64,000 bases of DNA from Pirellulales bacterium. GTDB lineage: Bacteria > Planctomycetota > Planctomycetia > Pirellulales > Lacipirellulaceae. Both the position numbers and the translations under genes were made by a program. Positions within the stretch are counted from its first letter, which is position 1. The number at the start of each line of letters is the position of its first letter. Below, in pieces: positions 1 to 64,000 of the stretch. Below the pieces are notes generated by a model that had not been told where the DNA came from, ran no database searches, and saw only the letters and a list, made by a program, of their open reading frames with translations. The stretch is from NCBI GenBank assembly GCA_963841515.1, contig CAWJDB010000010.1, forward strand, positions 431,237 through 495,236, read 5' to 3'.

Positions 1-115
1 GCAGCCAGCACAATGCGCCAGCTAACGCCTCGCCAACAGAATCGTCGTAATGTCTGAGTGAATAACCTGTGGCGGCCGGCTCGGACGCCGATGACTTCTT
101 GAAGTCGCTAACTAC

Positions 116-1393
116 TTGGAGCTCGACGAGGCCAGCGCGGCGTCCGAAAAGGCCGCAGGGCTTGCGAATAACAAACCGACCACGTTTCCCGATCAAACGC
201 TCGTCCATCGCAGCGCGCATTCCCGCCCCATGGAACCCCTCACGCAACTGCCGTTGAGCGAAGGAATCGTCGACTCGGCGCTCGCGTTTCGCGGCTACAA
301 CATCACCAATCTGGGCCGCACGCCCGAATTGCTTGCCGTCCCCGCCTATCGGGCGACGATTCTGCAGGAGTTCCAACGGTTCGGCGCCATCGGCGGCGAC
401 GTCACGGGCACGACCATCGACCTGCTGCGGATTGTCGAAGAGCGCCTGGAACCCGATCTCGATCACTACGGCGCCGCGGTGGCGCTGATCGTTGCCGTCG
501 CGTCGGCGCAACTGCGGCTGCTGCGAGAAGTCCATGGCGTCGACTACATGCGGGCGAAGCTCGTCTACGGCTACAGTCTCGGTGAGATGTCGGCCGTGTG
601 CGCGACGGGCGCGTTTGCCGCCGAAGATTTGATCCGCATCCCCCTGGCGATGGCGCGCGATTGCGGCGAGCTGGCTCGCGACGTGACGATGGGCGTGCTT
701 TTTTCGCGCGACGAGTCTTTGGCCGAAGACGAGGTGCGCCGATTGTGCGTGCAAATCACCCGCGAAGGCCAGGGGACCATTGGCGTGTCGAGCGTGCTGT
801 CCCCTAATTCGTACCTGGTGATCGGACAACGTGACTCGGTCGCCCGGTTCAAGGCGGCCATGCCCAAGTGGTTGCCGCCGGCGGTTCACTTGCGCATAAA
901 CAGTTACCGCTGGCCGCCGCTGCACACGCCCATCGTGCGACAAAGGTACGTGCCCGACCGGGCGTCGGTGTTGATGGAAGCCGTGCCGGGTCGCCCTTTC
1001 CCCGCGCGTCCGGCAGTCGTGTCACTGGTCACGGGCAAGAGGAATTACGACGAGTACAACGCCCGCGAAATCCTCCGGCAGTGGATCGACCACCCGCAAC
1101 GGTTGTGGGACGCCGTATGCGAAACGCTCGCCGCGGGCGTCAAGACGCTGATTCACGTCGGCCCCGAACCCAATCTCATTCCCGCCACGTTTTCTCGCTT
1201 GAGCGACAACGTGCGTCAGCAGACGCTCCGTCGCCGCCACATTCGCGCCATGTCGGAATTGGTGCGCCGGCCGTGGCTGGCGGCGCTGTTGCCCAGCCGC
1301 GCGTCGCTCTTGCGGGCGCCGTTTGTCCAGCAGATCGTGCTGGAGGACTGGCTGCTGGACCACGCGCCGCGACAGTTAGCCCCCGGTCACTGA
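116..1393 (+). CDS. Acyltransferase-domain protein (FabD-like malonyl-CoA:ACP transacylase superfamily)
   Basis: 425-aa ORF with nucleophile-elbow motif GYSLGE (GHSxG type). The real start is probably the M at 227 (MEPLTQ...). Confidence 0.55.
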   Translation: MELDEASAASEKAAGLANNKPTTFPDQTLVHRSAHSRPMEPLTQLPLSEGIVDSALAFRGYNITNLGRTPELLAVPAYRATILQEFQRFGAIGGDVTGTTIDLLRIVEERLEPDLDHYGAAVALIVAVASAQLRLLREVHGVDYMRAKLVYGYSLGEMSAVCATGAFAAEDLIRIPLAMARDCGELARDVTMGVLFSRDESLAEDEVRRLCVQITREGQGTIGVSSVLSPNSYLVIGQRDSVARFKAAMPKWLPPAVHLRINSYRWPPLHTPIVRQRYVPDRASVLMEAVPGRPFPARPAVVSLVTGKRNYDEYNAREILRQWIDHPQRLWDAVCETLAAGVKTLIHVGPEPNLIPATFSRLSDNVRQQTLRRRHIRAMSELVRRPWLAALLPSRASLLRAPFVQQIVLEDWLLDHAPRQLAPGH

Positions 1394-3172
1394 CCGGGGG
1401 CTAAATTGGACGCCAGCGGCGCCGCCTCGCGCAGCGGCAGCTCGAAGCACGCGGCTTCCTCGGCGTTGCGCACCACGAGGAGATTCCCCGCGAGGGCCGG
1501 GTTGTTCCAAGTAACGCCCTCGATCGCCTGCAGGTTGGCCAACTCGTGGTATTTCTTGGGAGACGCCTCGACGAGGATTAGCTCGCCCGATTCGCTCAGC
1601 ATCAGGATGACGTCGCCCACCAGGATGATCTGCCCGTGGCCGAACGTGGGACTGCGCCGCTTGTTCCATGTGGCGTGGCCGTCGCTCAGGTCCACGCATT
1701 GCAGGAACACGTCGTTCAACCCGTAGGCGAAGTCGTCGCGGATCACGACGTTGCCAAATTTCGTCTTCAGCACAGCCGGGTTTTTCCACACGGTCTCTGT
1801 CGTCCACTCGTCGCCGTCGCGCTTCACCTGGATCAGCTCGGCGCCGGCGCCGTAGCCCATCGACAGGAGCACGCGATCGTCGCCCACGGGCACGGGCTGC
1901 GCGGCGGCGGCGCTGGAATCGCTGCTGCTGGGCCATGAATGCCGCCACAGCTCCTGGCCGTCGTCGAGCCGATGGGCGGTGACGAAGCCTTCGTCGACCG
2001 ACAGAATTTGCCGCACGCCAGCCAACTCAGCCGCCAACGGCGAGGCGTAGCTGGAGGCGCAGGTCGCCCGCCGCCCAGGCCTGCTTGCCCGTACCCAGGT
2101 CGTAGGCGACGAGCGAGTTGCCCTCGGCGCCGCCGACGCTAATCACCACGCGCTGGTCGACCATCAGCGGCGAACCGGCCTTTCCCCACATCACCATGGG
2201 GGCGTCGTTCTCGGCCAGCGTGTCGTGACTCCACAGGAGCTTGCCAGTGCGGGCGTCGAGGCAGTTGACGATGCCGGTGGCGCCCTGAGCGATCACCCGG
2301 CCCTGAAAAACGGTTGGCGTCGCGCGGGGACCCGCGCCGCCGAGAGCGCCGCCGCCGCTGGGATCCCAACGCACCGCGTCGGCATGCGTCCACAACGGCT
2401 TGCCGGTGCGCAGCTCGTAACACACCACCAGCTCCTGGTCGCCGCGTTGCTCCTGCGTTACGGCGTAGTCGCCCACGAGGGCAAAGCCCGACCACCCGGC
2501 GCCGATCTTGTGCTTCCACAACTCGCGTGGGGGATGCTCCCGCCAATCAGTTTCGAGCGCGACGCCTTTCACCTCGGCCCAATAGCCATTGCCGAGAAAT
2601 CGCGGATAATCTTGCGGCGTCTCGCGCCAGTCAAGGGCGCCCCCAGCCGTCGTCTCCGGTGAAGTCAGGGCCCGATCGGGATCAGCCCACCGCCACCGCA
2701 CGCTCTCGATCCCAACGTCGCCATTGAGCACGACCTCGAAGGGCATCAGCTGCAGGTAATAGGCGGCCACGAGACCGCAGGCCGCCGCGGCCAACGACCA
2801 TCGCAAGCGTCGCGACAGGCCGCTGCGGCGCACCAGCCAGAGGGAATCGCCGACCACTGCGAGAGCGACCGCGATGTTAATCACCGTGTTGGTCACGCCA
2901 GGATCGACGTCGCTCCGCCATAAGACGGCGCAGCCCATCGCCAGCGCCAACGGCCAGGCGATGGGAAACCAGGCTCGTCGCGGTAGCGCTTGATCGGGCG
3001 CCACGGATGGCTCGGCGACTGACGAATTGACGGAAGAACTCATAGCCACATCATTCCTGGTCCGACCACGTAGCGCGCGTGCCATGTCCTCGTCCGCGTG
3101 GACATGCCTTGCCCCGTCGTCAACATGTCCACGTCGGCGGACCTCCGAGGACATGCCACCCACGCTCGGCAA
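1387..3172 (-). pseudogene. PQQ-like beta-propeller repeat protein with N-terminal TM helices; frame broken near 2030
   Basis: ORFs 2027..3172 and 1387..2037 overlap by 11 nt in different frames and both carry WxxxG/GxV beta-propeller repeats. Together they would make one ~590-aa protein. Confidence 0.5.
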
Positions 3173-3262
3173 CCAATCCTAAGTCTAGCTTTACCTGCCG
3201 GCAACGGCTGAACGATCGCAGCGTGGTTGCCAGCGGCGTCACGTCAAACTACAACCGACAGA

Positions 3263-4027
3263 ATGAGCACCCCTTCACAGCCACTCGCCGATTGCCGCGC
3301 GGTGGTCACCGGCAGCACCAGCGGGATTGGCCGTGCGATCGTCGTCGAGCTGGCCCAAGCCGGCGCAAGCGTGGTCGTCCACGGCCGCAATCGAGAGCGG
3401 GCTGAGAGCGTCTGCGCGTCGCTCCAGAAGATGAAGCGCGAGGCGACGGCGATTGTTACCGACCTGGCCGATGCCAGCGGTTGGGAAGGATTTGTCGACG
3501 GCCTGTGGCGCGAGCGGCCGATCGACGTGTGGGTCAACAACGCCGGCGCCGACGTGCTGACCGGCGACGCGGCAAACTGGACTTTTGAGCGAAAACTCGA
3601 AGCCCTGTGGCGACTCGACGTGGCGGCGACGCTAGGTCTGTCCCGCGCGGTCGGCCGCCGGATGCGCCAGCGCGGGCGCGGCGTGATCATCAACATTGGC
3701 TGGGATCAAGCCGAACTCGGCATGGCGGGCGACAGCGGCGAGATGTTCGCCGCCGCCAAGGGCGCCGTCATGGCGTTTACGCGCAGCCTGGCCAAGTCGC
3801 TGGCCCCGCAAGTGCGCGTCAACTGCCTGGCCCCGGGGTGGATCCGCACCGCGTGGGGCGAGACGGCCTCCGACTATTGGCAACAGCGCGCCACGCGCGA
3901 GTCGCTGCTGGGCCGCTGGGGCGAGCCGGAGGACGTGGCGCGGGCAGCGTGCTTCCTCGCGTCGCCGGCGGCGGCGTTTATCACCGGTCAAATCCTCGAC
4001 GTCAACGGCGGCCGCGCCGGTCCCTGA
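3263..4027 (+). CDS. Short-chain dehydrogenase/reductase (SDR) family oxidoreductase
   Basis: TGSTSGIGRA Rossmann motif, NNAG motif and C-terminal ITGQILDVNGG. The expected YxxxK reads FAAAK. Confidence 0.7.
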   Translation: MSTPSQPLADCRAVVTGSTSGIGRAIVVELAQAGASVVVHGRNRERAESVCASLQKMKREATAIVTDLADASGWEGFVDGLWRERPIDVWVNNAGADVLTGDAANWTFERKLEALWRLDVAATLGLSRAVGRRMRQRGRGVIINIGWDQAELGMAGDSGEMFAAAKGAVMAFTRSLAKSLAPQVRVNCLAPGWIRTAWGETASDYWQQRATRESLLGRWGEPEDVARAACFLASPAAAFITGQILDVNGGRAGP

Positions 4028-4140
4028 ACAATCCCTCCGGCCCCCTCGCCCTGGCGGGGAGGGTTGGGGAGGGGGGTTGAAGTGGACGGCGATTCGCCAC
4101 TTCTACACCCCTCCCCTAGCCCCTCCCCATCGAGGGGAGG
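4028..4140. repeat. Two REP-like GC-rich palindromic units (CCCTCCCC..GGGGAGGG..GGGGAGGGGGG)
   Basis: 4030..4078 is ~85% identical to 28905..28958. The GGGGAGGGGGG core is shared with the REP copies that flank the RAYT gene. Confidence 0.6.
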
Positions 4141-4160
4141 GCAGCGGAGGATCGAACATC

Positions 4161-5594
4161 ATGCCACGCGAGCACATCCATTTCGTCACCGGCCGATTGG
4201 CGGAGCATGCGCTCAAGTCCATCGTGGCGCCGCTGGCGGCACAGGCGGGGTTCGACTACACGATCGACGTGCTGCCGATCACCGTGGCCGCACTGATGAC
4301 GCCGGAGTGGATCGCCCGCCACTGCACGTGCCGCCGCGGCGACCACGCGGATCATTCTGCCGGGCTACTGCGAGGGCGACCTGGCGCCGCTCGGCGGCGA
4401 CCACGTCCGCCCGGTCGAGCGCGGCCCGCGCGACTTGCGGCAGCTTGCCGGCCTATTTCCTCCGCGAGCCGCCGCCGCAGGATTACGGCGCCTACGACAT
4501 CGAGATCATCGCCGAGATCAACCACTGCCCCGGTTGCCGCTGGACGAGATCCTGCGCCAGGCCGACGCAGCTGGCGCGCGACGGCGCCGATGTCATCGAC
4601 GTCGGCTGCGATCCGGGCGACGCCATGGCCGGCGTCGGCGACGCCGTGACGGCGCTGCGCGACGCGGGCATCCGCGTGTCGATCGACAGCCTCAACCGCG
4701 CGAGATCGCGCCGGCCGTGGCCGCCGGCGCCGAGCTGGTGCTGAGCGTCAACAGCACGAACCGCGACGCGGCGCCCGATTGGGGCGTCGAAGTGGTCGCC
4801 ATGCCCGACGTGCCGGCCACGCTCGAGGGACTCGACGAGACGATCGACTATCTGGCCCGCGCCGGGCGTGCCGCTGCGGATCGATCCGATCCTCGAGCCG
4901 ATCGGCTTCGGCTTCGCCGCCAGCTTGGGCCGCTACCTCGAAGTCCGCCGCCGCTATCCCGACGCCGAAATGATGATGGGCATCGGCAACCTCACCGAGC
5001 TGACCGACGTCGACTCGGCCGGCGTCAACGTGCTGCTGCTTGGCTTCTGCCAGGAGCTGTGGCATCCGCAGCGTGCTGACGACGCAGGTGATCAATTGGG
5101 CCCGCACCAGCGTCCGGGAGTGCGACGTCGCCCGCCGGCTGATGCATCATGCTGATCACGCACCGCGTGCTGCCCAAGCACCTCGAGCCGCGGCTGGTGA
5201 TGCTGCGCGACGCCGAAGTCGCAGGAAACGCCGATCGAAGCGCTCGCCGAGCTGGCCTGCGCAGATTCGAGATCCGAATTACCGCATCTTCGCCGCAGAC
5301 GGCGAGGTGCACCTGGTCGGCGCCGGCCTGCACCTGCACGACCGCGATCCGTTCGTCGTCATGGAACAGCTTCGCCGCGCCGGTCCCGACGACGGCCTGC
5401 CGAAAAATCTCGACCCGGGGCACGCCTTCTACCTCGGCTACGAAATGTGCAAGGCCGCCACCGCGCTCACCTTGGGCAAGACCTACCGCCAGGACGAAGC
5501 GCTCGACTGGGGTTTTGCGACGCAACCCGAGTCGCGCCACTACCTGAAGCGCTCGCGCGCCGTCGACCGGCGCGGGGAGCGACGATACGATTAA
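4161..5594 (+). pseudogene. Dihydropteroate-synthase-like pterin-binding protein (methanopterin-pathway DHPS-like); frame broken at least 4 times
   Basis: DHPS-like segments ([32 protein letters not shown]) are spread over six overlapping ORFs in all three + frames, starting at MPREHIHFVTG. Confidence 0.5.
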
Positions 5595-5597
5595 CGG

Positions 5598-7013
5598 ATG
5601 ACCGTCCCCCCTGCCCTGCCCTTGGTCGAACCACTGCCGGCGAGCCTCTCCGCCGTCGAAGCCTTCCAGCGACTTGCCAATCGGCCGCACGTCGTGTTCT
5701 TCGACAGCGCGGCGCATGACCCACGGGTAGGCCGGTACTCGTTCGTGGCGGCCGATCCGTTTCAGTGGATTGAGCGTGCGGCGACGGACGGCGACGCCTT
5801 GGAGGCTGTCGAGCAGCTGTGTCGGCGCTATGTCGGCGACCCGCGCCAAGATTTGCCGCCGTTCCAGGGCGGCGTCGCCGGGTTGTTTGGCTACGAGCTG
5901 GGGCGCACGCTCGAACCAGTTCCGGCGGCCCGCTACGACGACCTCCCGACGCCCGCGGTCGCGGTGGGCGCCTACGACGTCGTGGCGGCGTTCGACCACG
6001 CCGTCGGGCGAGGTTGGCTCATTTCGCAAGGCTTTCCCGAGACCGATCCAGACGCCCGCCGCAATCGGGCCACGGCCCGCCTTGCCGAGTTTCGATCGCT
6101 GCTTGCCGCGCCGCCAGGCGGATGTTGCATGGCGCCTCGCGAAATGCACGCTCCGCGACGACTTCGCGAATCTGGCGCCCCAACATGAAGTTGGCCCGCC
6201 CGGTGTTACCAGCAATCTTTCCGCCGACGACTACCGCCAGATGGTGCGCCGAGGCGTCGAGTATGTCCACGCCGGCGACGTGTTCCAGGTCAATCTGGCT
6301 CAGCGACTGCTCGCCAAGGCCCAAACAAATTCGGTAGACCTCTACCTGCACCTGCGCAATCGCAATCCGGCCCCTTATGCCGGCTATCTCGACCTCGGTC
6401 CTACGCAGGTCTGCAGCGCCTCGCCCGAGTGCTTCCTGACCGTCCGCGACCGTCACGTCGAGACGCGTCCGATCAAGGGCACCCGCGGCCGGTCGCTGCG
6501 CCCCGAGGCCGACCTGTTCGCCGGCGACGACTTGACGCTCAGCGAAAAGGACCGTGCCGAAAATGTGATGATCGTCGACCTGCTGCGCAACGACCTGTCG
6601 CGCGTGTGCCGGCCAGAGAGCGTGCACGTCTCGCAGCTATGCCGGCTGGAATCGTATGCCTTCGTGCAGCACCTGGTGTCGGTGGTGCGCGGCGAGTTGA
6701 AACCCGAGTGCACGCCGCTCGACCTCTTGCGGGCCAGCTTCCCGGCGGTTCGGTCACCGGGGCGCCCAAGGTGCGGGCCATGGAGATCATCGCCGAGCTG
6801 GAGCCCACCGCCCGCGGGGCCTACTGCGGCTCGCTCGCCTACATCGGCTTTGACGGCCCGATGGACGCGAGTATTCTCATCAGAACGATCACCGCCGGCC
6901 GCGGCTGGTGGCAACTCCCAGTCGGCGGCGGCATCGTCGCCCAGAGCGACCCCGACGAGGAGTACCGCGAAACCTGGCACAAGGCGCGGGGATTGCTGAA
7001 GGCCATCAGTTGA
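5598..7013 (+). pseudogene. pabB: Aminodeoxychorismate/anthranilate synthase component I, frameshifted twice
   Basis: The N-terminal Anth_synt_I_N-like part is in 5598..6188. The chorismate-binding motifs (GDVFQVNLAQR, IKGTRGR, DRAENVMIVDLLRNDL) are in 5770..6999. The C-terminal GGSVTGAPK...GGGIVAQSDP is in 6429..7013. Confidence 0.65.
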
Positions 7014-7017
7014 AAAC

Positions 7018-7133
7018 CCAATGAACAAATCCCAATGACCAAGCACCAATGACCAAGCACCAATGACCAATGACGGAGGAAAGACTGCTCTCGGCCAATT
7101 GGTCATTGGTGCTTGGTCATTGGTCATTACTCC
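7018..7133. repeat. Long imperfect inverted repeat (hairpin) made of CCAATGACCAAGCA units, lower GC, between pabB and pabA
   Basis: ccaatgaccaagcaccaatgaccaagcaccaatgaccaatgac ... ggtcattggtgcttggtcattggtcatt. Confidence 0.6.
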
Positions 7134-7136
7134 GCC

Positions 7137-7803
7137 ATGATTCTTCTCATCGACAACTACGACAGCTTTGTCCATAACCTCGCCCGGTATTTCCAGCGGC
7201 TGGGGCAGGAGACGGTCGTGCGTGCGCAACGACGCGGCGACGGCCGCTGACGTGCGCCGGCTGGCGCCGCAGGCGATCGTGCTGTCCCCCGGGCCGTGTA
7301 CGCCCGCCGAAGCGGGCTGCTCCGTGGATGTCGTGCGACAGCTTGCTGACCGAGTCCCCATCTTAGGCGTGTGCCTTGGCCATCAGGCAATCGCGGCCGC
7401 GTTGGGCGCCCGGATTGTCCGCGCCGCGGAACCGCGACACGGCCGCACCTCGCTGGTCGAACACTCGCCGTCCGGACTGTTCGCCGGCCTGCCGACGCCG
7501 CTGGTCGCGTGCCGATATCATTCGCTAGTCGTCGACGAGGCCACGCTCCCTCGGGAGTTGCGTCCCACGGCCCACGCCGACGACGGCGAGCTGATGGCGT
7601 TCGAGCACGAAACCCTCCCGGTGTTTGGCGTGCAATTTCATCCCGAGGCGACGCTCACCGAGCATGGCTACGCGCTGCTGGCGAATTTCTTGCGCCTGGC
7701 CGGCGTAGCCATTAGCGGCGATCCAGCGGCGCTCGCGGCGTCGGAAAATCGCACTCCGCCCGCATTTGAGTTCGCCGAGCCTGCGCTGCCAGTCACATTT
7801 TGA
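7137..7803 (+). pseudogene. pabA: Glutamine amidotransferase (PabA/TrpG, component II); frameshift near 7230
   Basis: N-terminus MILLIDNYDSFVHNL starts at ATG 7137 in frame 0. The rest (GVCLGHQ, FGVQFHPE) is ORF 7168..7803 in frame +1. Confidence 0.65.
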
Positions 7804-8441: not shown

Positions 8442-8550
8442 TCCGCGCCGCGTCGTGTTAGCCGGCATCGTCTCGATGCCGCGTCCCGACGAGCGATCGC
8501 GCCGCCGCGACCGCGCCGGCCAACTCATCCCCCAAGTTGCAATTCGCCAC

Positions 8551-9510
8551 ATGCCCGTTTTTGTCTCCGCTCCCAGCCGCCTCCACTTTGGCTTGCTCCG
8601 CTTCGAGCAGCCCACAGGCCCCAGCTTCGGCGGCCTGGGCATGATGATCGACCGGCCGCGCCTTGAAGTCGCGGTGTCGGCGGCCGACCAGTGGAGCGTC
8701 GACGGCTTCGCCGCCGCTCGCGCCCGCGAAGCCGCCGAGCGGGCCCTCGCGTCGACCCCGGCCGCCCACAAGCCCTCGGCGCTGGCCCTGCGAGTGACCG
8801 CCGACGCCTCGCTGCACCACGGGCTGGGCGGAGGAACTCAACTGGCGCTGGCCATCGCGGCCGGCGTCCGCGCGCTCGTGGGCCTGCCTCCCGGCGACGC
8901 CGCCACGCTGGCCGCCGCCGTCGGCCGCGGCCAGCGCAGCGCTGTGGGAAGTTACGGCTTCGTCCACGGCGGGCTCATTTGGGAGCTCGGCCGTCAACCC
9001 AACGAGCCGTTGTCCGCGCTGGGCGCCCGCATCGACGACGCCGCCCGATTGGCGGTGCGTACTGGTGGACTCGCCGGACGACTGCGGTCTGAGCGGTCAA
9101 CTCGAACGCGACGCCTTTCAAGCGCTTCGCCCGATGCCGGCCGCGACGACCGAGCGACTGCGGGCGCTGGCGGAAGACGAAATCCTCCCCGCCGCCCGCC
9201 GCGCCGACCTCGATGCCTTCGGCGAAGGCGTGTACCGGTATGGCCGCCTCTCGGGCGAGCAGTTCGCCGCCGTGCAGGGCGGCGCCTTCGCGTCGCCTCA
9301 GATCGGCCAGCGCGTGGCGGCGATTCGCGCCCTGGGCGTGCGCGGCACGGGACAATCGTCGTGGGGGCCGACAGTGTTTGCCCTCGTCGCGAGCCAGGCA
9401 GAGGCCGACGCGCTGATGCAGGAACTGAAAGGGCACCCCGCGACCGCCGGCTGCATCATCGACGCAGCCCGGCCCGACAACCACGGCGCGCCTTTCAGCA
9501 TCAGGCCCGC
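8551..9510 (+). pseudogene. beta-ribofuranosylaminobenzene 5'-phosphate synthase-like (MptG, GHMP-kinase fold); frameshift near 9055
   Basis: MPVFVSAPSRLHFGLL and GLGGGTQLALAIAAG (GHMP-like) are in frame 8455. The continuation DSPDDCGLSGQLERDAF...GTGQSSWGPTVFAL is in frame 9065. Confidence 0.5.
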
Positions 9511-9571
9511 CCCGAGGGTAATCGCTTTTCAACCGGGCCGCCAAACCGCCGTCCCCGAAAAGCCAAAGAAT

Positions 9572-10962: not shown

Positions 10963-12488
10963 GTAACCGTTCACGCCCTGGGGAGCAGTGACGGGGCTTT
11001 TTGGCGTGCGAAGTGGGCGTGCACGGCGGCGGCGACGAATTCGAAGGCGTTGCGTTTCTGTTGACGGCAGGTTTCGATGACGGTGAGCATCGTTTCGGCA
11101 AAGCGGCTGCCGCCGGCGCTTTGCGTGCCAAACGAGAGTTTCCGCCAGATCACGGCGTGGCGCAAGGCGCGCTCGCTGGCGTTGTTGGTCGGTTCGACGC
11201 CCTCCACGCGGACGAACGTCCACAGCCAATCGCGATGGTCATAGAGTTCGCGACACATCCCCGCGATCGATCGGTTACCGCTGCTGGCCCCGCGCAGCAG
11301 CACGCGTTCGACCTCGCGGCGGACCGGCGCCATGCGGCGGATGAAGGCCGTCCGCGTGATCGTGCCGTCGCGATAATTGGCCCAATGCTCGAACAGCTTG
11401 CCGGCGGCGCGGCGGAGGTCGTACCCGAGCCGTTTGGCCTGACCGTCGCCGCCGTCGATCAGGGCTTGAAAATCGCGTTTCAAATGCGCCCAACACCATT
11501 GCAAACGGCCGGTGTGCCAGTACATTTTGGCTCGATCGCAGGTCACCACGCCGCCGAACTCCGCCGTGAGCAGATCGACCAGCGCCGTCGCCTCGCGCAT
11601 AGCGCGGACCGCAAACACGGTGAAGGTCCGGGCCACGAACGTCCACAGCCACGCCTTCCTGTTTTGTTCCTTGGTCGCCGTTTCGTCGATGCTCAGTCGG
11701 TCCTGCGTCGGCAGTTGAGCGGCCAACTCGTCGTATGCCGGCCGCAGGGCCGCCGTCGCCTGATGTTGCATCTTCACCGTCAGCGCCGGGCAGCACGGCT
11801 GACCCGCGAGCGCCGAGAAACTCGGCCGTCCGCCGCTTGCTTTGTCGATAGTAGGCCATCAACAAGGCGACCAGCGCCGTCAGCCGCGGACCCGACTGGC
11901 CCTGCGGCACGCCGGCCGGCAACTCCGCGCACGTCGTTTCGCCGCAGCACGGGCACGCCAGCCGATGTCGCCGGTACTCGGTGACGTGCGGCTTGATCTC
12001 GGGCAGTTCCCACACCTGGTGACGCAGCGGGTCGGGATCGCGGCCGGTCAGCTTGCCGCCGCAGCGCCGGCACTCCGCCGGCTTGAGTTCTTGCACCTCG
12101 TCGCAGTCTTCGCTCGGAACGAGCGGCCGCTCGTGTTTCGCGTGGCCCGGTTGACCGCCGCGGCGCTTCGTCGATTTCCGCTTCCGCGGCGGCGGGGCCG
12201 GCCGGGCGTGCGGATGCTGCGTGCTCGGTGGCAGCGAGGAGTTTTGCGGCGTCTTGCCCTTCACTTGTCGTCGCAGGTCGTCCAACTCCGCTCGCAGGTC
12301 GTTCAGCTCCGCCCGCAGCCCGGCGATCTCCGCCAGCAAGACACGGATGATCTCCTGCCCTCCGGCGACTGGCGAGCGATGACGTTATCAGAAACGTTGC
12401 ACCACATGCCCCATGGTGTCGCCGAAAAAGCCAAGGCAAGTAAAGATCAATTTCCCTTCCAAAAGCTCCCCAGGGTGTGAACGGTTAC
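10963..12488 (-). mobile_element. IS66-family insertion sequence (single-ORF type)
   Basis: 24-bp terminal inverted repeats GTAACCGTTCACGCCCTGGGGAGC / GCTCCCCAGGGTGTGAACGGTTAC starting with GTAA. An IS66 transposase lies inside. Confidence 0.7.
10971..12339 (-). pseudogene. IS66-family transposase, split into two frames near 11780
   Basis: The N-terminal zinc-finger/leucine-zipper part is in 11275..12339. The C-terminal DDE part (WAHLKRDF...NNASERALRH) is in 10971..11777. Confidence 0.7.
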
Positions 12489-12721: not shown

Positions 12722-13715
12722 TGCTCAGTAGAAAACGTGCCTGTGCTAGCTAAACAACGGTTTTTGGCGGTTCGTATTGAGATGGATGAAGACAAGCAAG
12801 AGTCCGAAGCGGGTGTTGGTCGAGGCGCTCAAGGTCGCCGAGGCGGCGCTGCCGGCGTATTCGCACCGATTCAGCCCGAAGAAGTTTACGCTGCACCAAC
12901 TGTTCGCCTGCTTGGTGCTGAAGGACTTCTACAACCTGACCTATCGCGGCACGGTCGGCCTGCTGGCGGACGGCGACTCGCTGTCCGGGGCGATCGGCCT
13001 CAAGGAGGTCCCTCACTGGACCACGCTGCAGAAGGCGGCCGACCGGCTGCTCTTGGCCCGTTCGTTTCGGCGGCTGCTCTCGGCGACGGTCGAGCGGAGC
13101 CAGCAGGCGAAGATCGTGGGCCGGCGACGCGTTCGCCTGGCGGCGATGGACACCAGCGGCTTCGAGGCGCAGCACACCAGTCGGTACTACGCCGCACCGG
13201 CGAAAAATGACGGGAAACGACGGGCGGAAACGCCGGGTGACGTATCGACGCTATCCGAAGCTGGGCTTGGCCTGCGACGCGGCGAGCCACTTCATCTTGG
13301 CGGCCCGCACAAGCCAGGGACCGCAACCCGACTTCGGCGACTTCGCCCCGTTGTATGCGGCGCAGGCGCGCATGGGATTGACAACGATCGCGGCGGACGC
13401 CGGCTTCGACAGCGAAGCGAACCACGAGTTGGCTCGCGACGAGTTGGGGATCCAATCGCTGATTCCGGCGACTCATGGCCGACCCGCTCGCGGCGAGCCG
13501 ACAGGTCGGTATCGGAAACAGATGAAGCGACATCTTGGTCAAAGCCGTTACGGCCAGCGCTGGCAGGTCGAAACCGTCAACTCGATGATCAAACGCCTGA
13601 CCGGAGAGGTCGTCAACGCCCGCACCTACTGGCGCCGCTGTCGACTCCTCCTGCTGAAAACCCTCACGCACAACATCAGCATCCTTAGACAACAGCTAGG
13701 TTTTCTACTGAGCAT
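12722..13715 (+). mobile_element. IS4/IS5-superfamily (DDE_Tnp_1) insertion sequence
   Basis: 15-bp terminal IRs TGCTCAGTAGAAAAC / GTTTTCTACTGAGCA, flanked by an 8-bp direct repeat GTGGCGTC (12714..12721 and 13716..13723). Confidence 0.65.
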
Positions 13716-14847: not shown

Positions 14848-16363
14848 GCTCGAATGGCACTCGGATAGCTCTAACGTCGGTGCATCAAACGTTTTCGTGC
14901 GAGGCGTCGGGGTTCGCGGAGGTGTTTGTACTGTTTAGGCCTGCGTTTGACGAGCCGCGGCTCAATTCGGTCGGGTCGATCGGCGACGCGGTGGCTGCCG
15001 ATCATCCAGAGGAGAGCTGCGTAGAGCCGATCAGCATTGCGCGAGTCGGCGATCACCAGGCCCAAGAACGCGTTGATTGACTGCATCGCTCCTTTGAAGC
15101 TGAGCTGATGCGGCGCAACGCCTGCGGACAGGGCCGCTTCCAGCATCAAGCCGCGGATCAAGTTGTAGGCTAACAGGTGCGCATAGAACTCTTTGCGCAC
15201 GGTACTCGGCTTCTTGCAGCGTAAGCGCTCCATTTGCATGTGCGTCTTGAGCTTCGCAGGTGCAGTTCGGCGTCCCAACGACGGCGATAGAGGTTGGCCA
15301 GGTCTTCCGCCGGATAGGCGATCGGATCCACCAGCGTGGTCGCCAGCAGGATGACCCGCGGGCGAAAACCTGGCTGGTCGACCCGATAACGCAGATGACG
15401 AATCCCAGCGAGCGACGGCAACCGCTCGTACGTCGGCCGATCCATCCAGGCAGGGCCTGCGTCGGCTTCTGATAGACACGTCAACTGGTCGGCGTCGCCC
15501 GAGCTTCAGTCCGGTGCGAAAGTCGATCTTGCGTGAGCTGGCCTGGGCGCACCAGGTCGACGCGGGCGTCTCCGCAGCAACGCAAAGTCCCAGAAGGACG
15601 CATAGTATCGATCGGCCAGCGCCACTTCGCCCGGCCGGCAAACTATCGAGCAAGCGGCGAAACAAGTTGTTTTCGCCGGTCTGCTTCCCTTCGTAGGGGC
15701 CGATCGCCACCTCGACGACCGCTCCTACGGCCAGCGAAAAGACGACCACGATCCCGCGATCGGAAAGCCGATGGCTCTCCGCTTGAATGGACTGTTGCGG
15801 ATATTCGCGCTGGTTGTCCGGCGTGTCGGCCATCGATGATGGTCGAGCCGTCGACGACCTTGACCGCTCGGCCGAGCCACTGCCAAGCCCGGTCGGCACT
15901 ACAACGCCAGTTCCTGGCCGGTGGAACGCACCAATCGACAAGAGTTGCTCGGGCAGCCGCTCGCGCGCTTCGCAGTAACTGTTGGTGTCGGGATGGCACG
16001 GCGGGAGGTTCTGCGAGCCGCCAGAAGTTCAGCTTGGCAACAGCTTCACGGCACGAATGGTCTGCACCACGACCTGGCTGAGGAACACCCACAGCGTGAC
16101 CGCCGGAGAGTAGACCCGTTCTCGAAACTCGTGTTGCAACCGCTGGCAGGCCGCAATTTACACTTTTCCGAAGACAAACGCTCTGCTGAAAAACAACCCC
16201 TGACAGCTATGCGCCAGTCGTGAACCGCGGCGCGCAATTGCGCTTCCGACGCATCCAAACATCTCACAACCTCCTTGTTATGGCTTGGCATCGGTCCACG
16301 CCAACCATCTCAAGGAGGTTGCTTTCAATCCATATCAATTCAACTCACAAACACTTACGACTA
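14848..16363 (-). mobile_element. IS4-family insertion sequence
   Basis: 18-bp terminal IRs CGAATGGCACTCGGATAG (14849..14866) and CTATCCGAGTGCCATTCG (16345..16362). Flanking ~10-bp direct repeat GGACGCAGCT(C). Confidence 0.6.
14871..16090 (-). pseudogene. IS4-family DDE transposase broken into at least three frames
   Basis: Pieces in 14871..15941 (..RIEPRLVKRRPKQYKHLREPR), 15170..15484 (YRRRWDAELHLRS) and 15643..16092 (VVDGSTIIDG). Confidence 0.6.
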
Positions 16364-16936: not shown

Positions 16937-17890
16937 TTACTTGGCCGCCAATTGCGACCCGCCCGTCCGCTTCGCTGGCGCCGGGCCACGCCCTTCGCCG
17001 AGCAGGCCGTAAGCCACGAGCGTCTTGCGGAGCGCCGCCTTCTGCGGCGCATCCAGCGGCGTCATCGGCAGCCGCATCTCGCCGGTGTCGCGGCCGAGCA
17101 TTTTCATCGCCGCCTTGATCGGGATCGGGTTGGTGGACAGACCCGAGCATGTCGCGGCAGAGCGGGAACAGCTTGCGGTGCCACTGCCGCGCCTCGGCCA
17201 GGTTGCCGCGTCGAAGGCCTCGATCAGCGCGATCATGTCCCGCGGCACGATGTTGCCGACGACCGAGATGACGCCCCGGGCGCCGATCGCCATCAGCGGC
17301 AGCGTCAGGCTGTCGTCGCCGCTGAGCACGGTCAGGTTCGGTCGGCGCGATGATCTGCGAGGCCTGGTCCAGCGAGCCGGTGGCTTCCTTGACCATCGTG
17401 ATGTTCGGCAGTTCGGCCAGCCGGGCGATCGTCTCCGGCTCGATGTTCTTGCCGGTGCGGCCGGGGATGTTGTAGACGCAGATGCGGCAGATGCCGACTG
17501 CCTCGGCCAGGCGCTTGAAGTGCTGGTAGAAGCCCTCCTGCGTGGGCTTGTTGTAGTAGGGGGCGACGACCAGCGCCGCGTCGGCGCCGGCCTTCTCGGC
17601 CAACTTCGTCAGCCGCAGGGCCTCGGCCGTGCTGTTGGAGCCGGTGCCGGGCATGACCTTGATGCGCCCGCCGGCGATCTCGCACGACGAACGGCGATCA
17701 CGCGCTCGTGCTCTTCGTGGGTGAGCGTCGGCGACTCGCCGGTCGTGCCGACCGGGCAGAGGCAGGTCGTGCCGGCGGCGACCTGAAACTCGATCTGCTC
17801 GCGGAAGCTTCGTAGTCGACTTCGCCGTTCTTGAACGGCGTGACCATGCGCCACCGACAGGCCGGCAAATGCTTCGCCTTTGGTCGTCAT
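16937..17890 (-). pseudogene. dapA: 4-hydroxy-tetrahydrodipicolinate synthase, spread over three frames
   Basis: N-terminus [11 protein letters not shown]...[17 protein letters not shown] in 17609..18181. Middle [20 protein letters not shown]...NIPGRTG in 16872..18044. C-terminus [23 protein letters not shown] in 16937..17329. Confidence 0.7.
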
Positions 17891-18084
17891 GCGGGCAGGC
17901 TCCTGATGCTCGCGGGGGACGAGCCGAGTGCGCGGGACGACTGCAATTTGCGTGACGTGGCGGAAGATCGGCGTACGCACGCGACAATTGGCGCCACGGC
18001 GAGGATGTCGTCGCGCTGGCAATAGCCGGCCCGTGCGATGCCATCGGCGGACGTCAGGGGATGTCACCGATATGCCGTTACGTG

Positions 18085-18870
<786 letters not shown>

Positions 18871-34237: not shown

Positions 34238-34249
34238 CTACTCCCATGC

Positions 34250-34337
34250 GGAATGGGCAGGATTCGAACCTGCAAGGCTGTTGAAGGCTCGGCCGGCTTC
34301 CAAGTGGGGTTTCGTCGCCAAGTCGATTTGCCATTCC
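34250..34337 (-). tRNA. Class II (long variable arm, 88 nt) tRNA; anticodon not resolved (Leu/Ser-type)
   Basis: Perfect acceptor GGAATGG/CCATTCC, T arm GCAGG-TTCGAAT-CCTGC. Confidence 0.5.
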
Positions 34338-36860: not shown

Positions 36861-36865
36861 CAAGT

Positions 36866-44508: not shown

Positions 44509-46589
44509 ACGCCGGGGTGATCGCGGCGACGGCGGCGGCGGCGGCCTGCCTGGCGTCCAGGGAAAGACCAACCTCGCCTCTTTGGCTGGCGAAGTGTGCG
44601 CGGGCGTCGGCGACGATGCGATCTGATTCGTTAAGATGACGCAGCCACCCGAAGTACAGCATGCCCAAAGCGCCAGCGACGATCAGCAGACACACGCCGC
44701 TCGTTGTCCAACTGTGAATCACCGTCAGCATTGGCGTCAAGATGATCATCACTTGGAACAGTAACGCCACAGGCAGCGCAGCGATGTCGCGCCGGTGCTC
44801 TGCCGTCACCCGGGCCCGGAGCCACGTAGGCAGCTCTCGCGAATACGGCTTCCATAAGCCGAACGGAAGCGTCGACTGGTAGAAACGGCGCAGCACCGCG
44901 TCGGGCGTGGGCGCCGAGGCCAACGAGCCCGCAATTCCCGCGGCCAGCCCCACGGCGCCCAGCAAAGGCAGCAACCACGATTCTTGCTGCAGGAAGCTCC
45001 AAGTCGCCCCCAGCCACGGCGCCGCGAAGCGGACCAGGACGGCCGCCGCGACCCCCGCGAGGGTTCCGGCGGTATAGCCGACGCCGTTGAAACGACGCCA
45101 ATAAAGCGGCAGGAGTTGCGGCATCATCATGCCGCTGCCCAGTCCCATGATGATCCAGGCCCAAACGTCATTGATGCTTGGCACCGAAAAGGCGAACAAG
45201 AAGCCAGCCGTCACCATGGAGCCGATGAACAGCCAGCTCACGATCATCATCTCCGATACTGTCGCCGCCGAGCGGAAATGTTTCTGATAGATATCGTGGA
45301 CGAAGAACCCCGCCGATTGATTGACCCACGCCCCAAATCCCGCCATGGCGGCCGCGATTAACGACACCACCATCAAGCTGCGAAATCCGGGGGGGATTTT
45401 CAGCAGCAAGACGGCGGGCATGATGCGCTCGGGATTGATGTTGCCGTGGGAGCCCACCAGCAGCAGCTTGGTTTGCCACTGGTCGCCCAATATTTCGCGC
45501 AACTTCGCAGTGAAATCCGACGGGAAGGCTTCCGGGTGATTGGCGATTTTCGAGGTAATCGTCGCCCAATTCTGGTCAGACGCCGAAACGTGCGACTGCA
45601 CGACTTCGCCAGCCTCGCGGACCGCGGCGCCATCAGGGAAAAGCTGGTTCACCACTCCCAAACCCAGCACGGCGATGCCGACCATCATCGGCCAGCGGAA
45701 CGAAATGAGGCAAATCCATAGAAAGGTGAGTTTGCCGCAGTCGGCGTCGCTGCGTGCGGCGAAGTATTTGGGATCATCGCCGGCGCCCATGCCAAACAGG
45801 ATGTTGCGCAGCAGGTAGAGGCAAGCACAAAGCGCCAGCGATCGGTAGGGTTCGTAGCCCGCTGGCATGACGGCGTGGACCGTCGGCGCCGCGGCGGTCC
45901 AAGCGGGATTCATTGTCACCTTCCGCGCCAGATCTGCGAGCGACTCGACGGCCGAGGTTTGGTGCGCCTAAGACAATGATCGTAATCGCGGCCGCAATGA
46001 CGATTCCCATCTGTACCAGGTGGATGATCACGACCCCGTAGAATCCTGAGAACATCGAGTAAACGGTGGCGCTGACTACGAGTACTAGCGCGCAGGTGGC
46101 CGGCGAGAAGGGTACGAAGGTGGACAAGAAGAGCCCGATACCCTTCACCAAATAAGCGATCATCCCAGTGGTCACGACAATGCCCGCGAGGGCGCGCGCC
46201 GCCTGCGCCATTCGGCCAGCCGTGCCGTCGCCAAACCGAAAGATCATCCATTCGGCCCCGGTCAAACAACCGGAGCGGCGATGCCACTTGCCGGCCCATA
46301 GCATGGTGACCGCCAGCACGAGGACCGCTCCCCCGCGGAACTCGATGAAAAGCCCGCGCGGCCCGAGCAAATACAGGAACGACACGATGATCATCGTGCC
46401 GGCCAGGTCCCAGAAGTCCATCACGCCCGAGACGCCGAGCATCCACCAGGGCATCGACCGTCCGCCGATGAGGTATTGCTCCAGACTCGCCGAAGCCCGG
46501 CGCTTAAGATGGAAACCCAAGGTGACGATGACCGCCAGATATAGCGCGATGATCGCGTAGTCGATTCCATTGAGGTAGTTCTCGCCCAC
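44486..46589 (-). pseudogene. Sodium:solute symporter (SSF) family transporter; frameshift near 45930
   Basis: ORFs 45774..46589 (N-terminal TM helices) and 44486..45919 (rest). Multi-TM throughout. Confidence 0.55.
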
Positions 46590-46809
46590 GGCGACGCTTG
46601 CTCCCGGGCATGTGGCGGAACCGCCCAGACGTGGCGGCTCGAGACGGCGGCGATAGTTCGCGGCCGCCAGTCTTTCAGCATGGGGTAGGGACCGAACGAT
46701 GACAACGACCGAAATTAGGAATTGCCCGCTGCGGTTTTCTGGCGCCCTAAATGGTCCAAGTCTGGTACGTTTTGGGGCGTGCCGTGATCACTTCGCCATC
46801 GAGCCAATC

Positions 46810-56276: not shown

Positions 56277-58062
56277 CTACTCGAAAAACGCCACGCGGGC
56301 GACTTCCTCCAAACTGGTTTCCTCGGCTTCGGCCAGGCGCATGCCGCATTCCAAGAGCGTGCAGTGGCCATGTTCGACGTGCCACTTGCGAATGGCCTCG
56401 ATGGACGGGTCGCGCGCGATCAGCCGCCGCAGCTCGGGGTCAGACGGCAGCACCTCGTAAATGCCCGTGCGCCCATGGAACCCAGTGTCGAAACACTCGC
56501 GGCAGCCCTCGCCGCGGGCGAAGCTGCGGCGTTTGTCGCCCTTGTAATGCAGCGCTTCGAGATATTCCGCCGCGGGGTAATAGGTGGTGCGGCACTTCGG
56601 ACATATTGACCGCACCAGCCGCTGGGCGACCACGCCGACCAGCGCCGCGGCGAGCTTGTAGCTCTCGACGCCCATGTCCATCAGCCGCAGCACGGCGCCG
56701 GCGCTGTCGTTGGTGTGCAGCGTGCTGAGCACCAGGTGGCCGGTCAGCGCCGCCTGCACCGCCACCTGCGCCGTCTCGGCGTCGCGGATTTCGCCGACCA
56801 TGATCACGTCCGGGTCTTGCCGCAAAATCGACCGCAGCGCCGCGGCGAAGCTCACGCCGCGCGTGCTTTCAATCTGCACTTGGTTGATCAGCTCGATCTG
56901 ATACTCGACCGGGTCCTCGACCGTCACGATGTTGCGGTGGACGCTCTTGATCAGCTCCAGGGCCGAGTAGAGCGTCGTGGTCTTGCCGCTGCCCGTGGGG
57001 CCGGTCACCAGCACCAGGCCGTACGGCTTGCGGAGCAAATCCTTGACAACCACCAGCACATCCTGGGGCATGCCCAGTTCGTCGAGGTTGAACGTGAGCC
57101 GGCCCTTGTCGAGCACGCGCATCACCACCTTCTCGCCCAGCACGGTGGGGAGAGTCGAAACGCGCAAGTCGACTTCCTTGCCGTCGGCCACCACCTGAAA
57201 GCGGCCGTCCTGCGGCAGGCGGTGCTCGGCGATGTCCATCTTCGCCATAACTTTGATGCGCGACACAATGGCCGGGTAAATGTCGCGGCGAGGGCGCAGC
57301 ACCTCGACGAGCTGGCCGTCGACGCGATAGCGCACCGTGGCAAACTTGCGACCGGGCTCGACGTGGATGTCGCTGGCGCACTTGCGAACGGCCTGCAGCA
57401 CCAGGTAATTCACCAGGTTGATGACCGGGCTGCCCTCGACCAGTTGGTGTACCGAGGCGACGTCCATCTCCGAAGCGTCGGCGCGGAGCTCGACCGCGGC
57501 GTCGTCCAGGTCGGCGGTCACGGCGTCGACATGGAAGTCGTCCTCGTACGCTCGCCGCATCATCCGCTCGATGGCGGCGCGGAAGGCGAACGCCGGGCGG
57601 ACCGTCAGCCCCGTGGTCCGCTCAATGCGGTCGATCTTCTCGAGATCCAGCGGGTCGTCGGTGACGACCGTCAGCTCGTCCCGCACGCGAAACAGCGCAA
57701 TCACGCTGTGCCGCTCGGCGAACTGACGCGGCAATACATGCACGGCCTGCGGATCGAGCAGGCCTTCGCGCAGCCGTACGGCGGGCACGCCGAGCTGCGA
57801 CTCGATGAACGGCAGCAGCTCCTCTTCAGTGACGAAGCCCAGATCGAGCAGCACCTCGCCGAGCCGCTCGCCGCTTTCGGCCTGACGGCTCAGCGCGGCT
57901 TCCAGCTCCTTCTCGTCGAGCAGGTTGGCCCCGACCAGCCGCTGCCCCAGCGGGCTGCGCGCAGCGGCGACTGGACCAGCGCGTCGGCCATGTCCGCATC
58001 GAGCGGAGCCAGCTCGTGGCCGACCCCTGGGCGGTCGGCAATTGGTTCGGCGACCGTATTCA
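56277..58062 (-). CDS. pilB: Type IV pilus assembly ATPase PilB (GspE family); probable frameshift near 57965 at the 5' end
   Basis: Walker A VLVTGPTGSGKTTTLYSAL, Asp box, His box, tetracysteine motif. The N-terminal GSPII_E_N-like part is LGQRLVGANLLDEKELEAALSRQ. The likely native start MNTVAEPIADRP... is in another frame. Confidence 0.75.
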
Positions 58063-58069
58063 TTCCGCA

Positions 58070-58396: not shown

Positions 58397-58569
58397 GGGG
58401 GCGCCCCTGTTTCATCGACTCGGACGGCTAATCCGCACGCAATCCCACGTTCCTAGCCGCCGGCGGGAGCCGGCGTCCTCTCTCCCTCGACCGCCGGCTT
58501 CCGCCGGCGGCTATCATGCCATTGGCCTCCTCCGCCGGCGTGATTGGCCGCCGACCGAGCGTTCATCCA

Positions 58570-60442: not shown

Positions 60443-60822
60443 AACGGCGGCGGCAAGCAGTTGGCAGGCAGTCTCTACCACCGCCGAGGGGCTGAATGGC
60501 TTGGGAAACACCGCGTTGATGTCAAGCTCTTGCTGGATGCGAGGCAGCTCGAGCTCCAACCCCTTGGCGGTCAGCAAAATAATCGGCGTCGCGGCGTACG
60601 CGGGCAGGTCGCGCAAACGCCGACACAGCTCCAACCCCGTCATCTCGGGCATTTGCTGGTCCGAGATGACGATATCGAACGACTCCGCTTGCGCCAGCTC
60701 ATAAGCTTCGCGCCCGTTGCGCCGGTGCGCGTCTCAAAGCCGGCGCGTTCCAGGGCAAATTGGGTGACGCGCGCCAAGGCCACGTTGTCGTCGACAATCA
60801 GGGCGCGGCCTCGGACGGTCAT
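60443..60822 (-). pseudogene. Single-domain response regulator (CheY-like receiver); frameshift near 60710
   Basis: ALIVDDNVALARV in 60640..60822 and MPEMTGLELCRRLR...PIILLTAKG in 60440..60652. Confidence 0.6.
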
Positions 60823-61629: not shown

Positions 61630-63261
<1,632 letters not shown>

Positions 63262-63282
63262 GGGCGCCGGGAGACGCCAATC

Positions 63283-63757
63283 ATGCCCCACCGTCGATTC
63301 GCCCTCCGCGATCGCGGCGCGTTCACGATCGTCGAGTTGGTCCTCGTCGTGTTGGTGATCGGCATCCTGGCGGCCGTGGCGGCGCCAAAATACGGCGGAG
63401 GCGCTGGCGAACTATCGCGCCAACACGGCTGCCCGGCGGGTCGCCGCGGACCTGCGGTTGGTGCGCACCTACGCCCGCAAGAGCAGTCAGGCGCAAACCG
63501 TGACGTTCAATACCGCATCCGACGCCTACGCGGTTGCCCCGATGCCGGATCTCGACCGACCCGACGCCGCGTACTCAGTGAACCTGGCCGTCCAGCCGTA
63601 CCTCGTCGATTTGAACTTGGTCAACTTCAATGGAACCGCCTCGGTGCAGTTCGATATCTACGGCCGGCCGAATAACTCGGGCTCCGTGATCGTCAAGTCC
63701 GGCAGTCGACAATACACTGTGCAAGTCGACGCGGCGGGCAACGTCTCCATCCAATAA
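63283..63757 (+). pseudogene. GspH-like pseudopilin (prepilin-type N-terminus); frameshift near 63395
   Basis: GAFTIVELVLVVLVIGILAAVAAPK in 63283..63675. It continues ..YARKSSQAQTVTF.. in 63458..63757. Confidence 0.5.
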
Positions 63758-63784
63758 CCCGAGCGGCGCGGCCAAAGCTTAACC

Positions 63785-64000
63785 ATGATCGGCTCGAACC
63801 TCCAACGCCGCTGCCGCTGGGCGGCCTCCGCGCATCGCCGGGGTTACACGCTCCTCGAGCTGATCATCGCCTCCAGCGCCGGCGCCCTTGTGGTCGCCGG
63901 GCTGGCTTCCTCGTTGGTCATCGCCAGCAAGGCTCTCGTGCCCGACGCGCCGGCCACCGCCGACGCCAATCGCGGTGCGCTGGCTCTTTCCCAACTCACC
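63785..64000 (+). CDS. Pseudopilin with prepilin-type N-terminus (partial, runs off the window end)
   Basis: MIGSNLQRRCRWAASAHRRGYTLLELIIASSAGALVVAGL. Confidence 0.5.
   Translation, partial: MIGSNLQRRCRWAASAHRRGYTLLELIIASSAGALVVAGLASSLVIASKALVPDAPATADANRGALALSQLT

What the first reader, a model, noticed from the sequence alone, without database searches (positions are those of the whole stretch)
1..64000. Frameshifts in roughly 25-30 genes, including essential ones
Adjacent ORFs in different frames carry consecutive parts of one protein for the PQQ-propeller gene, the DHPS-like gene, pabB, pabA, the MptG-like gene, the IS66, IS5 and IS4 transposases, dapA (3 frames), pdxJ (at least 3 frames), two hydrolases, the FAD oxidoreductase, the PolX-like gene, the HNH gene, the SSF transporter, pilB, the response regulator, the HD-GYP gene and the GspH-like gene. 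Breaks often fall in G/C homopolymer runs; for example the pilB break is explained by one missing C in a C-run. A cell cannot lose dapA, pdxJ and pilB function casually, so the most economical explanation is uncorrected indel errors from long-read-only assembly of a high-GC genome. The alternative is an unusually decayed region. Either way, ORF-level annotation of this window needs care, and the tRNA irregularities above may be partly artefactual.
Basis: inference. Interest (0 to 1): 0.5.

Follow-up and report, generated by a model that had tools for sequence, protein, structure and literature searches.

The report
Patchy assembly indel errors breaking genes
About 20 genes in this planctomycete window are split by roughly 55 single-base insertions or deletions. 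These are almost certainly consensus errors concentrated in a few low-quality patches of the assembly, not real gene loss, so the finding matters only for annotation.

Summary
The frameshifts are real in the sequence. That gives about 55 events in 20 genes, not 25-30 genes.

1. The events are strongly clustered. Four genes (DHPS-like, IS4 transposase, dapA, pdxJ; 4.5 kb) carry 35 events, or 7.8 per kb. The other validated coding sequence has 0.65 per kb, and about 10 kb stretches have none (chi-square p = 2e-14).
2. About two thirds are 1-nt insertions at non-homopolymer sites. Only 4 of 50 events lie within 6 nt of a run of 4 or more bases (chance 11%). The minority of deletions do tend to sit in short C/G runs, including the pilB example.
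3. After frame correction there are no in-frame stops. Columns invariant among orthologs are kept: 118/120, 154/154, 75/77 and 87/87.

Indel-only damage with intact residue conservation points to technical error, not decay. The source contig is 657,511 nt, which fits a long-read assembly. The spectrum looks like stochastic errors in locally under-polished or low-depth patches, not homopolymer miscalls. Biological interest is low.

The parts
1391..3064 (-). PQQ beta-propeller gene, 1 extra base at 2053-2056
   Evidence: 4 of 4 orthologs place a 1-nt insertion there. PQQ_2 is found in both ORF halves.
4083..5570 (+). DHPS-like gene (DUF6513 + pterin-binding + DUF4346). HOT: 10 events at 4323, 4444, 4532(del), 4567, 4694(del), 4864, 5060, 5154, 5224, 5258
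   Evidence: After correction it is 72% identical to the ortholog, has 0 stops and keeps 118/120 invariant columns.
5601..7007 (+). pabB, 2-3 events (6117-6161 region; deletion at 6736 in CCC/GG)
   Evidence: 154/154 invariant columns kept.
7119..7800 (+). pabA, 1 insertion at 7221-7224
8482..9520 (+).
10980..12300 (-). IS66 transposase, 1 insertion at about 11826
   Evidence: Pfam split. Alignment to the intact Aulosira IS66 transposase.
12792..13713 (+). IS5 transposase, 1 insertion at about 13194-13197, next to an A5 run
   Evidence: The intact Paludisphaera homolog is a single 406-aa ORF, and the shift is +1, so it is not a programmed -1 frameshift.
14880..16244 (-). IS4 transposase. HOT: at least 11 events between 15253 and 16067
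   Evidence: Alignment to the Acidovorax IS4 transposase. The homolog is distant (43% identity), so the positions are approximate.
17000..17929 (-). dapA-like DHDPS gene. HOT: 7 events at 17144, 17209(del), 17339, 17685, 17692, 17808(del), 17848
   Evidence: About 80% identical after correction; 75/77 invariant columns kept.
18089..18807 (-). pdxJ. HOT: 7 events at 18191, 18279, 18313, 18341, 18400(del), 18449, 18633
   Evidence: 77% identical after correction; 87/87 invariant columns kept.
22470..24556 (-). GH65-like hydrolase, 1 deletion at 24334-24343 in a G5 run
   Evidence: 5 of 5 homologs. The depositor's protein P0241 is 618 aa against about 700 aa in homologs.
24650..26295 (+). FAD-dependent oxidoreductase, 1 deletion at 25190-25200, next to a G5 run
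27464..28514 (-).
   Evidence: 5 of 6 homologs agree.
28990..29859 (+). PolX-like helix-hairpin-helix protein, 1 event near 29270-29290 (net -1)
   Evidence: HHH_8 in one frame, HHH_5 and the Pol lambda fingers domain in the next. Junction read. No ortholog alignment was done.
33650..34250 (-). HNH endonuclease inside the tRNA array, 1 event near 34135-34145 (net +1)
   Evidence: HNH domain in one frame. The N-terminal part 'PVLVLNKNWQP...ALVLLW' is in the other frame. The family resemblance is from my own knowledge.
44489..46600 (-). Sodium:solute symporter, 1 event near 45966 (net +1)
   Evidence: SSF profile 1-164 | 276-406 in two frames. Junction read.
56280..58063 (-). pilB, 1 deletion in the CCC run at 57951-57953; the first 37 residues are in the other frame
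   Evidence: The STAS gene upstream is a separate gene in the orthologs.
60443..60813 (-). Response regulator, 1 deletion at 60722-60723
   Evidence: 4 of 4 orthologs. The ORF lacks Response_reg profile positions 1-28.
61690..63240 (+). HD-GYP gene, 2-3 events (61924-61937, 62922, possibly 63208)
63283..63736 (+). GspH-like pseudopilin, 1 insertion at 63391-63397
   Evidence: N_methyl and GspH domains in different frames. 4 of 4 orthologs.

Best explanation
The frameshifts are errors in the assembled consensus, not mutations in the organism. The window comes from a 657.5-kb contig of a Pirellulales-like planctomycete. Most of it is accurate, but a few kilobase-scale patches carry about 1 indel per 100-130 nt, and the rest carries about 1 per 1.5 kb. 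The patches are roughly 4.3-5.3 kb and 15.2-18.7 kb, with a 'warm' zone between them. The errors are single-base. About two thirds are insertions at arbitrary sites and about one third are deletions, often in short C/G runs. There is little sign of substitution error.

This is the spectrum expected from stochastic long-read errors left where consensus depth or polishing was locally inadequate. It is not the spectrum of systematic homopolymer miscalls. What is shown: the lesions, their positions, types and clustering, and the intact conservation of the underlying proteins. What is inferred: that they are technical, and that low depth or failed polishing explains the patchiness. The platform is not determined. 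The roughly 2:1 insertion:deletion ratio resembles PacBio continuous-long-read error, but that comparison is from my own recollection.
For: (1) Lesions are indels only. There are 0 in-frame stop codons in any frame-corrected alignment, across about 55 lesions.
(2) Columns that are at least 95% invariant among orthologs are retained at the same rate in broken and intact genes: DHPS-like 118/120, pabB 154/154, dapA 75/77, pdxJ 87/87, against SDR 73/75 and DUF447 58/58. The most damaged genes also have the highest identity to orthologs (72-80%).
(3) 7-11 lesions per gene cannot accumulate without many substitutions if the mutations were real. With indels about a tenth as frequent as substitutions (my own knowledge), 10 indels imply roughly 100 substitutions. 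That would give about 15 hits on invariant columns and several stops. Observed: 2 and 0.
(4) Orthologs in 13-60 related genomes are single intact ORFs.
(5) All gene classes are hit, including mobile elements.
(6) Extreme patchiness: chi-square 120, df 25, p = 2e-14; 7.8 per kb against 0.65 per kb.
(7) The contig is 657,511 nt, and the deposited proteins are truncated at the breaks.
(8) Frameshift-fragmented genes are a documented property of long-read assemblies and MAGs, and are worse at low coverage (PMC8103633, PMC12007338, PMC8574707).
Against: No reads, depth or quality values are available, so the technical origin is inferred, not observed. The error spectrum is insertion-biased and not homopolymer-linked. 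It does not match the residual-error profile reported for well-covered PacBio assemblies of high-GC genomes, which is G/C homopolymer deletions (PMC8574707), nor the usual nanopore profile. Local GC content explains the patches only partly: hot zones are about 70-71% GC, but the 70% GC SDR gene has no events. Isolated events in otherwise clean regions, such as the pilB C-run, the response regulator and the IS transposases, could individually be real.
Confidence: 0.88

Rival explanations
1. Genuine pseudogenisation. A decaying chromosomal region, perhaps linked to the IS invasion at 9.5-16.9 kb, has lost the tetrahydromethanopterin-cofactor genes, dapA, pdxJ and others.
For: The densest damage lies on both sides of an IS cluster that all syntenic relatives lack. 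Broken IS transposases are common in nature. No reads are available to exclude it.
Against: There are 0 nonsense codons among about 55 lesions, no large deletions, and invariant residues are intact in genes with 7-10 frameshifts. Genes right next to the hot genes (SDR, DUF447, rnc, the 19234-19590 ORF) are untouched. dapA and pdxJ encode core biosynthetic enzymes and are conserved in synteny in relatives.
Confidence: 0.04
2. Mixed origin. The hot patches are artefacts, but a few isolated events in clean regions are real mutations or phase-variable slippage. Candidates are the C/G-run deletions in pilB, the GH65-like gene and the FAD oxidoreductase, and the single breaks in the IS66 and IS5 transposases.
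For: These events sit in C/G runs of 3-5, a context where real slippage occurs. Pilus genes and IS transposases are often inactivated in nature. The background rate (0.65 per kb) is 12 times lower than in the hot patches.
Against: The same contexts are also the classic sites of long-read deletion errors (PMC8574707). The runs are short for phase variation. Nothing separates these events from the technical background.
Confidence: 0.2
3. Programmed recoding: ribosomal frameshifting or transcriptional slippage restores the frames, as in some IS families.
For: The IS5 break lies next to an A5 run. Some IS families use programmed -1 frameshifting (my own knowledge).
Against: The IS5 shift is +1, and the intact homolog is a single ORF. 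No slippery motif recurs at the about 55 sites. Ten recoding sites in one gene is unprecedented. Orthologs are unbroken.
Confidence: 0.01

Closest known systems
Indel (frameshift) consensus errors in long-read assemblies and MAGs
   Same: Single-base indels fragment otherwise conserved genes into adjacent ORFs. The effect is worse at low coverage, and deposited annotations carry the truncated proteins (PMC8103633, PMC12007338, PMC8574707).
   Different: Here the errors are not enriched at homopolymers, are insertion-biased and are confined largely to kilobase-scale patches. The commonly described residual errors are G/C homopolymer deletions in high-GC genomes, spread genome-wide.
Bacterial pseudogenes in decaying genomes (for example host-restricted pathogens and symbionts)
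   Same: Many neighbouring genes are interrupted, and IS elements are nearby.
   Different: Real decay mixes frameshifts with nonsense mutations, deletions and relaxed residue conservation. None of these is seen here.
Programmed frameshifting in IS transposases (IS1/IS3 type, some IS5 subgroups)
   Same: A transposase is encoded in two overlapping frames.
   Different: The direction is wrong (+1), intact single-ORF homologs exist, there is no slippery heptamer, and the IS4 copy has at least 11 breaks.

Membership tests
Technical indel errors of an assembly consensus | Lesions are indels only, with no excess of nonsense or missense change | tested here: met
   0 in-frame stops. Invariant columns kept: 118/120, 154/154, 75/77, 87/87.
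Technical indel errors of an assembly consensus | Lesions hit genes regardless of function or essentiality, and orthologs are intact | tested here: met
   Biosynthetic, regulatory, pilus and transposase genes are all hit. Orthologs are single ORFs.
Technical indel errors of an assembly consensus | Lesion density tracks local read depth or consensus quality, and lesions vanish with accurate reads | not testable with these tools
   No reads or quality values are available. Patchiness fits but is not proof.
Homopolymer-type errors (nanopore, 454/Ion, well-covered PacBio) | Indels enriched in homopolymer runs, mostly deletions | tested here: not met
   4/50 events near runs of 4 or more, against 11% by chance. 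0 of 5 runs of 6 or more affected. Insertions:deletions about 2:1.
Genuine pseudogenes | Mixed lesion types (nonsense, deletions) and relaxed constraint on conserved residues | tested here: not met
   No stops appear in any corrected alignment.
Genuine pseudogenes | Lesions confirmed by independent accurate reads | not testable with these tools
   The source contig is not retrievable.
Programmed ribosomal frameshift in IS elements | Slippery motif at the frame junction, -1 direction, conserved two-ORF layout in homologs | tested here: not met
   The IS5 shift is +1 and its homolog is a single ORF. IS66 homologs are single ORFs. IS4 has at least 11 breaks.

The most novel reading that the evidence does not exclude
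The clustered single-base insertions are real. A localised, insertion-biased mutational process, for example error-prone repair around an IS-invaded locus, would have very recently riddled the DHPS-like, IS4, dapA and pdxJ genes with frameshifts before any substitutions accumulated.
Probability: 0.02. Interest if true: 0.6.

Novelty: not a real feature. Interest (0 to 1): 0.1.

Why it matters
It matters for annotation, not biology. ORF calls, pseudogene counts, completeness estimates and pathway reconstructions from this contig will be wrong unless frames are corrected. Examples are the tetrahydromethanopterin-cofactor, lysine and vitamin B6 pathways. The deposited proteins are already truncated: P0241 is 618 aa where homologs are about 700 aa. 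The patchy, non-homopolymer error pattern also means that homopolymer-aware fixes would miss most errors. Irregular features elsewhere in the window, such as odd tRNAs in the array, should be read with about 0.65 errors per kb in mind.

Tried and rejected
- Megablast of 50 kb against plasmids found no relatives.
- Exact-protein look-ups of window ORFs and of the 100%-identical P0121 returned no contig and no accession. The source record, and therefore its sequencing method, could not be identified beyond its length (657,511 nt) and its presence in NCBI and ENA.
- A chimeric three-protein query to recover homologs of several genes at once failed. FAD-oxidoreductase hits filled the whole list.
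- GC content as the cause of the hot patches is only partly consistent.
- A frameshift in the 48720-50143 ORF pair, suggested by my codon-usage Viterbi, was rejected because the ORF ends at a normal stop. Viterbi switches at pilO/pilP-like, pilN/pilM and histidine-kinase/response-regulator boundaries are ordinary gene boundaries. The secretin, pilM, pilC, the histidine kinase and the 60859-61299 pilin are intact.
- 'Repairing' non-canonical tRNAs with single indels works, but many alternative edits also work, so it is not informative.
- Representative P0363 looked frameshift-ridden itself and was ignored.
Full report
WHAT THE WINDOW IS. The window is 64% GC. Its best syntenic relatives are Pirellulales/Lacipirellulaceae-like planctomycete MAGs, with 55-80% amino-acid identity. 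80 loci were fetched with the intact DUF447 gene and 80 more with pilB. Two window proteins have 100%-identical database entries from a single 657,511-nt contig held by NCBI and ENA (P0121, P0241). The record itself could not be retrieved.

CHECKING THE OBSERVATION. A codon-usage Viterbi over six frames flagged many same-strand frame switches. I then wrote a protein-to-DNA aligner that allows 1-2 nt shifts. I aligned intact orthologs from the fetched loci, or homologs from the protein searches, to the window. Events supported by 2-4 orthologs are located to within a few bases, because the flanking residues are often identical. For example, 'LGFCQEL|GIRSVLTT' has one extra base at 5060.

All 20 named genes are broken, carrying about 55 events in total:
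- PQQ propeller: 1
- DHPS-like: 10
- pabB: 2-3
- pabA: 1
- GHMP/MptG-like: 1
- IS66: 1
- IS5: 1
- IS4: at least 11
- dapA: 7
- pdxJ: 7
- GH65-like hydrolase: 1
- FAD oxidoreductase: 1
- a conserved unknown protein: 1
- PolX-like: 1
- HNH: 1
- SSF: 1
- pilB: 1
- response regulator: 1
- HD-GYP: 2-3
- GspH-like: 1

One more Viterbi candidate (48720-50143) is not a frameshift. The pilB example is right. The true N-terminus (MNTVAEPIADRP...PLDAD...) is in the frame of the upstream STAS gene. Adding one C to the CCC run at 57951-57953 restores a 595-aa ORF.

(i) Clustering. In 29 kb of ortholog-validated coding sequence, four genes (4.5 kb) hold 35 of 51 events, or 7.8 per kb. The rest holds 0.65 per kb. 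Several genes and about 10-kb stretches have none, for example 50.2-60.4 kb apart from pilB. The heterogeneity gives chi-square 120, df 25, p = 2e-14. The hot genes lie at 4.3-5.3 kb and 15.2-18.7 kb. These flank a 7-kb IS cluster that relatives lack.
(ii) Spectrum. Frame arithmetic and ungapped ortholog alignments show about 37 single-base insertions and about 17 deletions.
(iii) Context. Events are not homopolymer-linked. 4 of 50 lie within 6 nt of a run of 4 or more, against 11% by chance. 1 of 39 runs of 5 or more and 0 of 5 runs of 6 or more in validated genes is affected. A G7 run inside the STAS gene is read correctly. Of 22 well-supported insertions, 11 can only be a base unlike both neighbours. 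Deletions do favour short C/G runs: 4532, 24337, 25199, 57952.

ARTEFACT OR REAL. After frame correction no alignment contains an in-frame stop. Columns at least 95% invariant among 13-60 orthologs are kept as well in broken genes as in intact ones:
- broken genes: DHPS-like 118/120, pabB 154/154, dapA 75/77, pdxJ 87/87
- intact genes: SDR 73/75, DUF447 58/58

The most damaged genes are also the most similar to their orthologs (72-80%). Real decay that had produced 7-10 frameshifts in a gene would bring roughly ten times as many substitutions (my own knowledge of bacterial mutation spectra). Those would hit invariant residues and create stops. That is not seen. Orthologs are unbroken, and the lesions strike biosynthetic, regulatory, pilus and transposase genes alike. 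Programmed frameshifting is excluded for the IS elements: the IS5 shift is +1 and its homolog is a single ORF, and IS4 has at least 11 breaks.

WHAT KIND OF ERROR. A uniformly unpolished long-read assembly does not fit the 12-fold patchiness. Homopolymer miscalling does not fit the contexts either. Published residual errors of well-covered PacBio assemblies of high-GC genomes are G/C homopolymer deletions (PMC8574707). Frameshift load in nanopore MAGs rises at low coverage (PMC8103633). The pattern here is random insertions outnumbering deletions, few substitutions and kilobase-scale patches. The best explanation is stochastic read errors that survive where consensus depth or polishing was locally poor. 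The 2:1 insertion:deletion ratio recalls PacBio continuous-long-read error, but that is my own recollection and is not tested. GC content is higher in the hot patches (0.70-0.71 against 0.64) but is not sufficient, since the 0.70-GC SDR gene is clean. The cause of the patchiness remains inferred.

VERDICT. The homopolymer and 'long-read-only' details are not supported. There is no biological novelty. The practical message is to frame-correct or re-polish before annotating, and to distrust single-base irregularities elsewhere in the window.

Noticed in passing
window 32956-37070, - strand: A dense tRNA array: 29 tRNAs by ARAGORN, including one with a 2-nt 'anticodon' at 34673-34747, plus 5 further tRNA-like Rfam hits that ARAGORN misses (32956-33019, 34824-34895, 35465-35539, 35801-35855, 36537-36610). 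An HNH endonuclease gene sits inside the array. Rfam scores are modest (30-65 bits). Each non-canonical member becomes a canonical tRNA after some single-base indel, but many different edits work, so it is unclear whether they are error-damaged or naturally degenerate.
   Followed up: partly
window 9564-9605 and 16522-16563: A 42-nt direct repeat (86% identical) brackets the 7-kb cluster of IS200-like, IS66, IS5 and IS4 elements. In all syntenic relatives the GHMP gene is followed directly by dapA/pdxJ, so the whole block looks like an insertion specific to this genome.
   Followed up: partly
window 9606-9645: An unusual G/A-rich tract (GGGGAAAGGGGGGGAAAGGGGGGGGGAGGGGGGAAAGGGGA, with G7, G9 and G6 runs) lies immediately after the left copy of the 42-nt repeat. 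It could be a G-quadruplex-forming element, an IS end or another assembly oddity.
   Followed up: no
window 3260-9520: A cluster of SDR, DHPS-like (DUF6513/pterin-binding/DUF4346), pabB, pabA, DUF447 and GHMP-kinase-like genes. It looks like a tetrahydromethanopterin-cofactor biosynthesis cluster, is conserved in synteny across many Pirellulales MAGs, and is followed there by dapA-like and pdxJ genes.
   Followed up: no
window 57893-58411 and loci L081-L103: A small STAS-domain (anti-sigma-antagonist-like) gene sits immediately upstream of pilB. The arrangement histidine kinase - STAS - pilB - pilC - pilM is conserved in about 20 related metagenomic loci.
   Followed up: partly
protein P0363 (representative library): A database 'protein' homologous to the 27464-28514 gene aligns to the window only with about 9 frameshifts and a stop. 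This suggests that the public entry itself comes from an error-ridden assembly.
   Followed up: no
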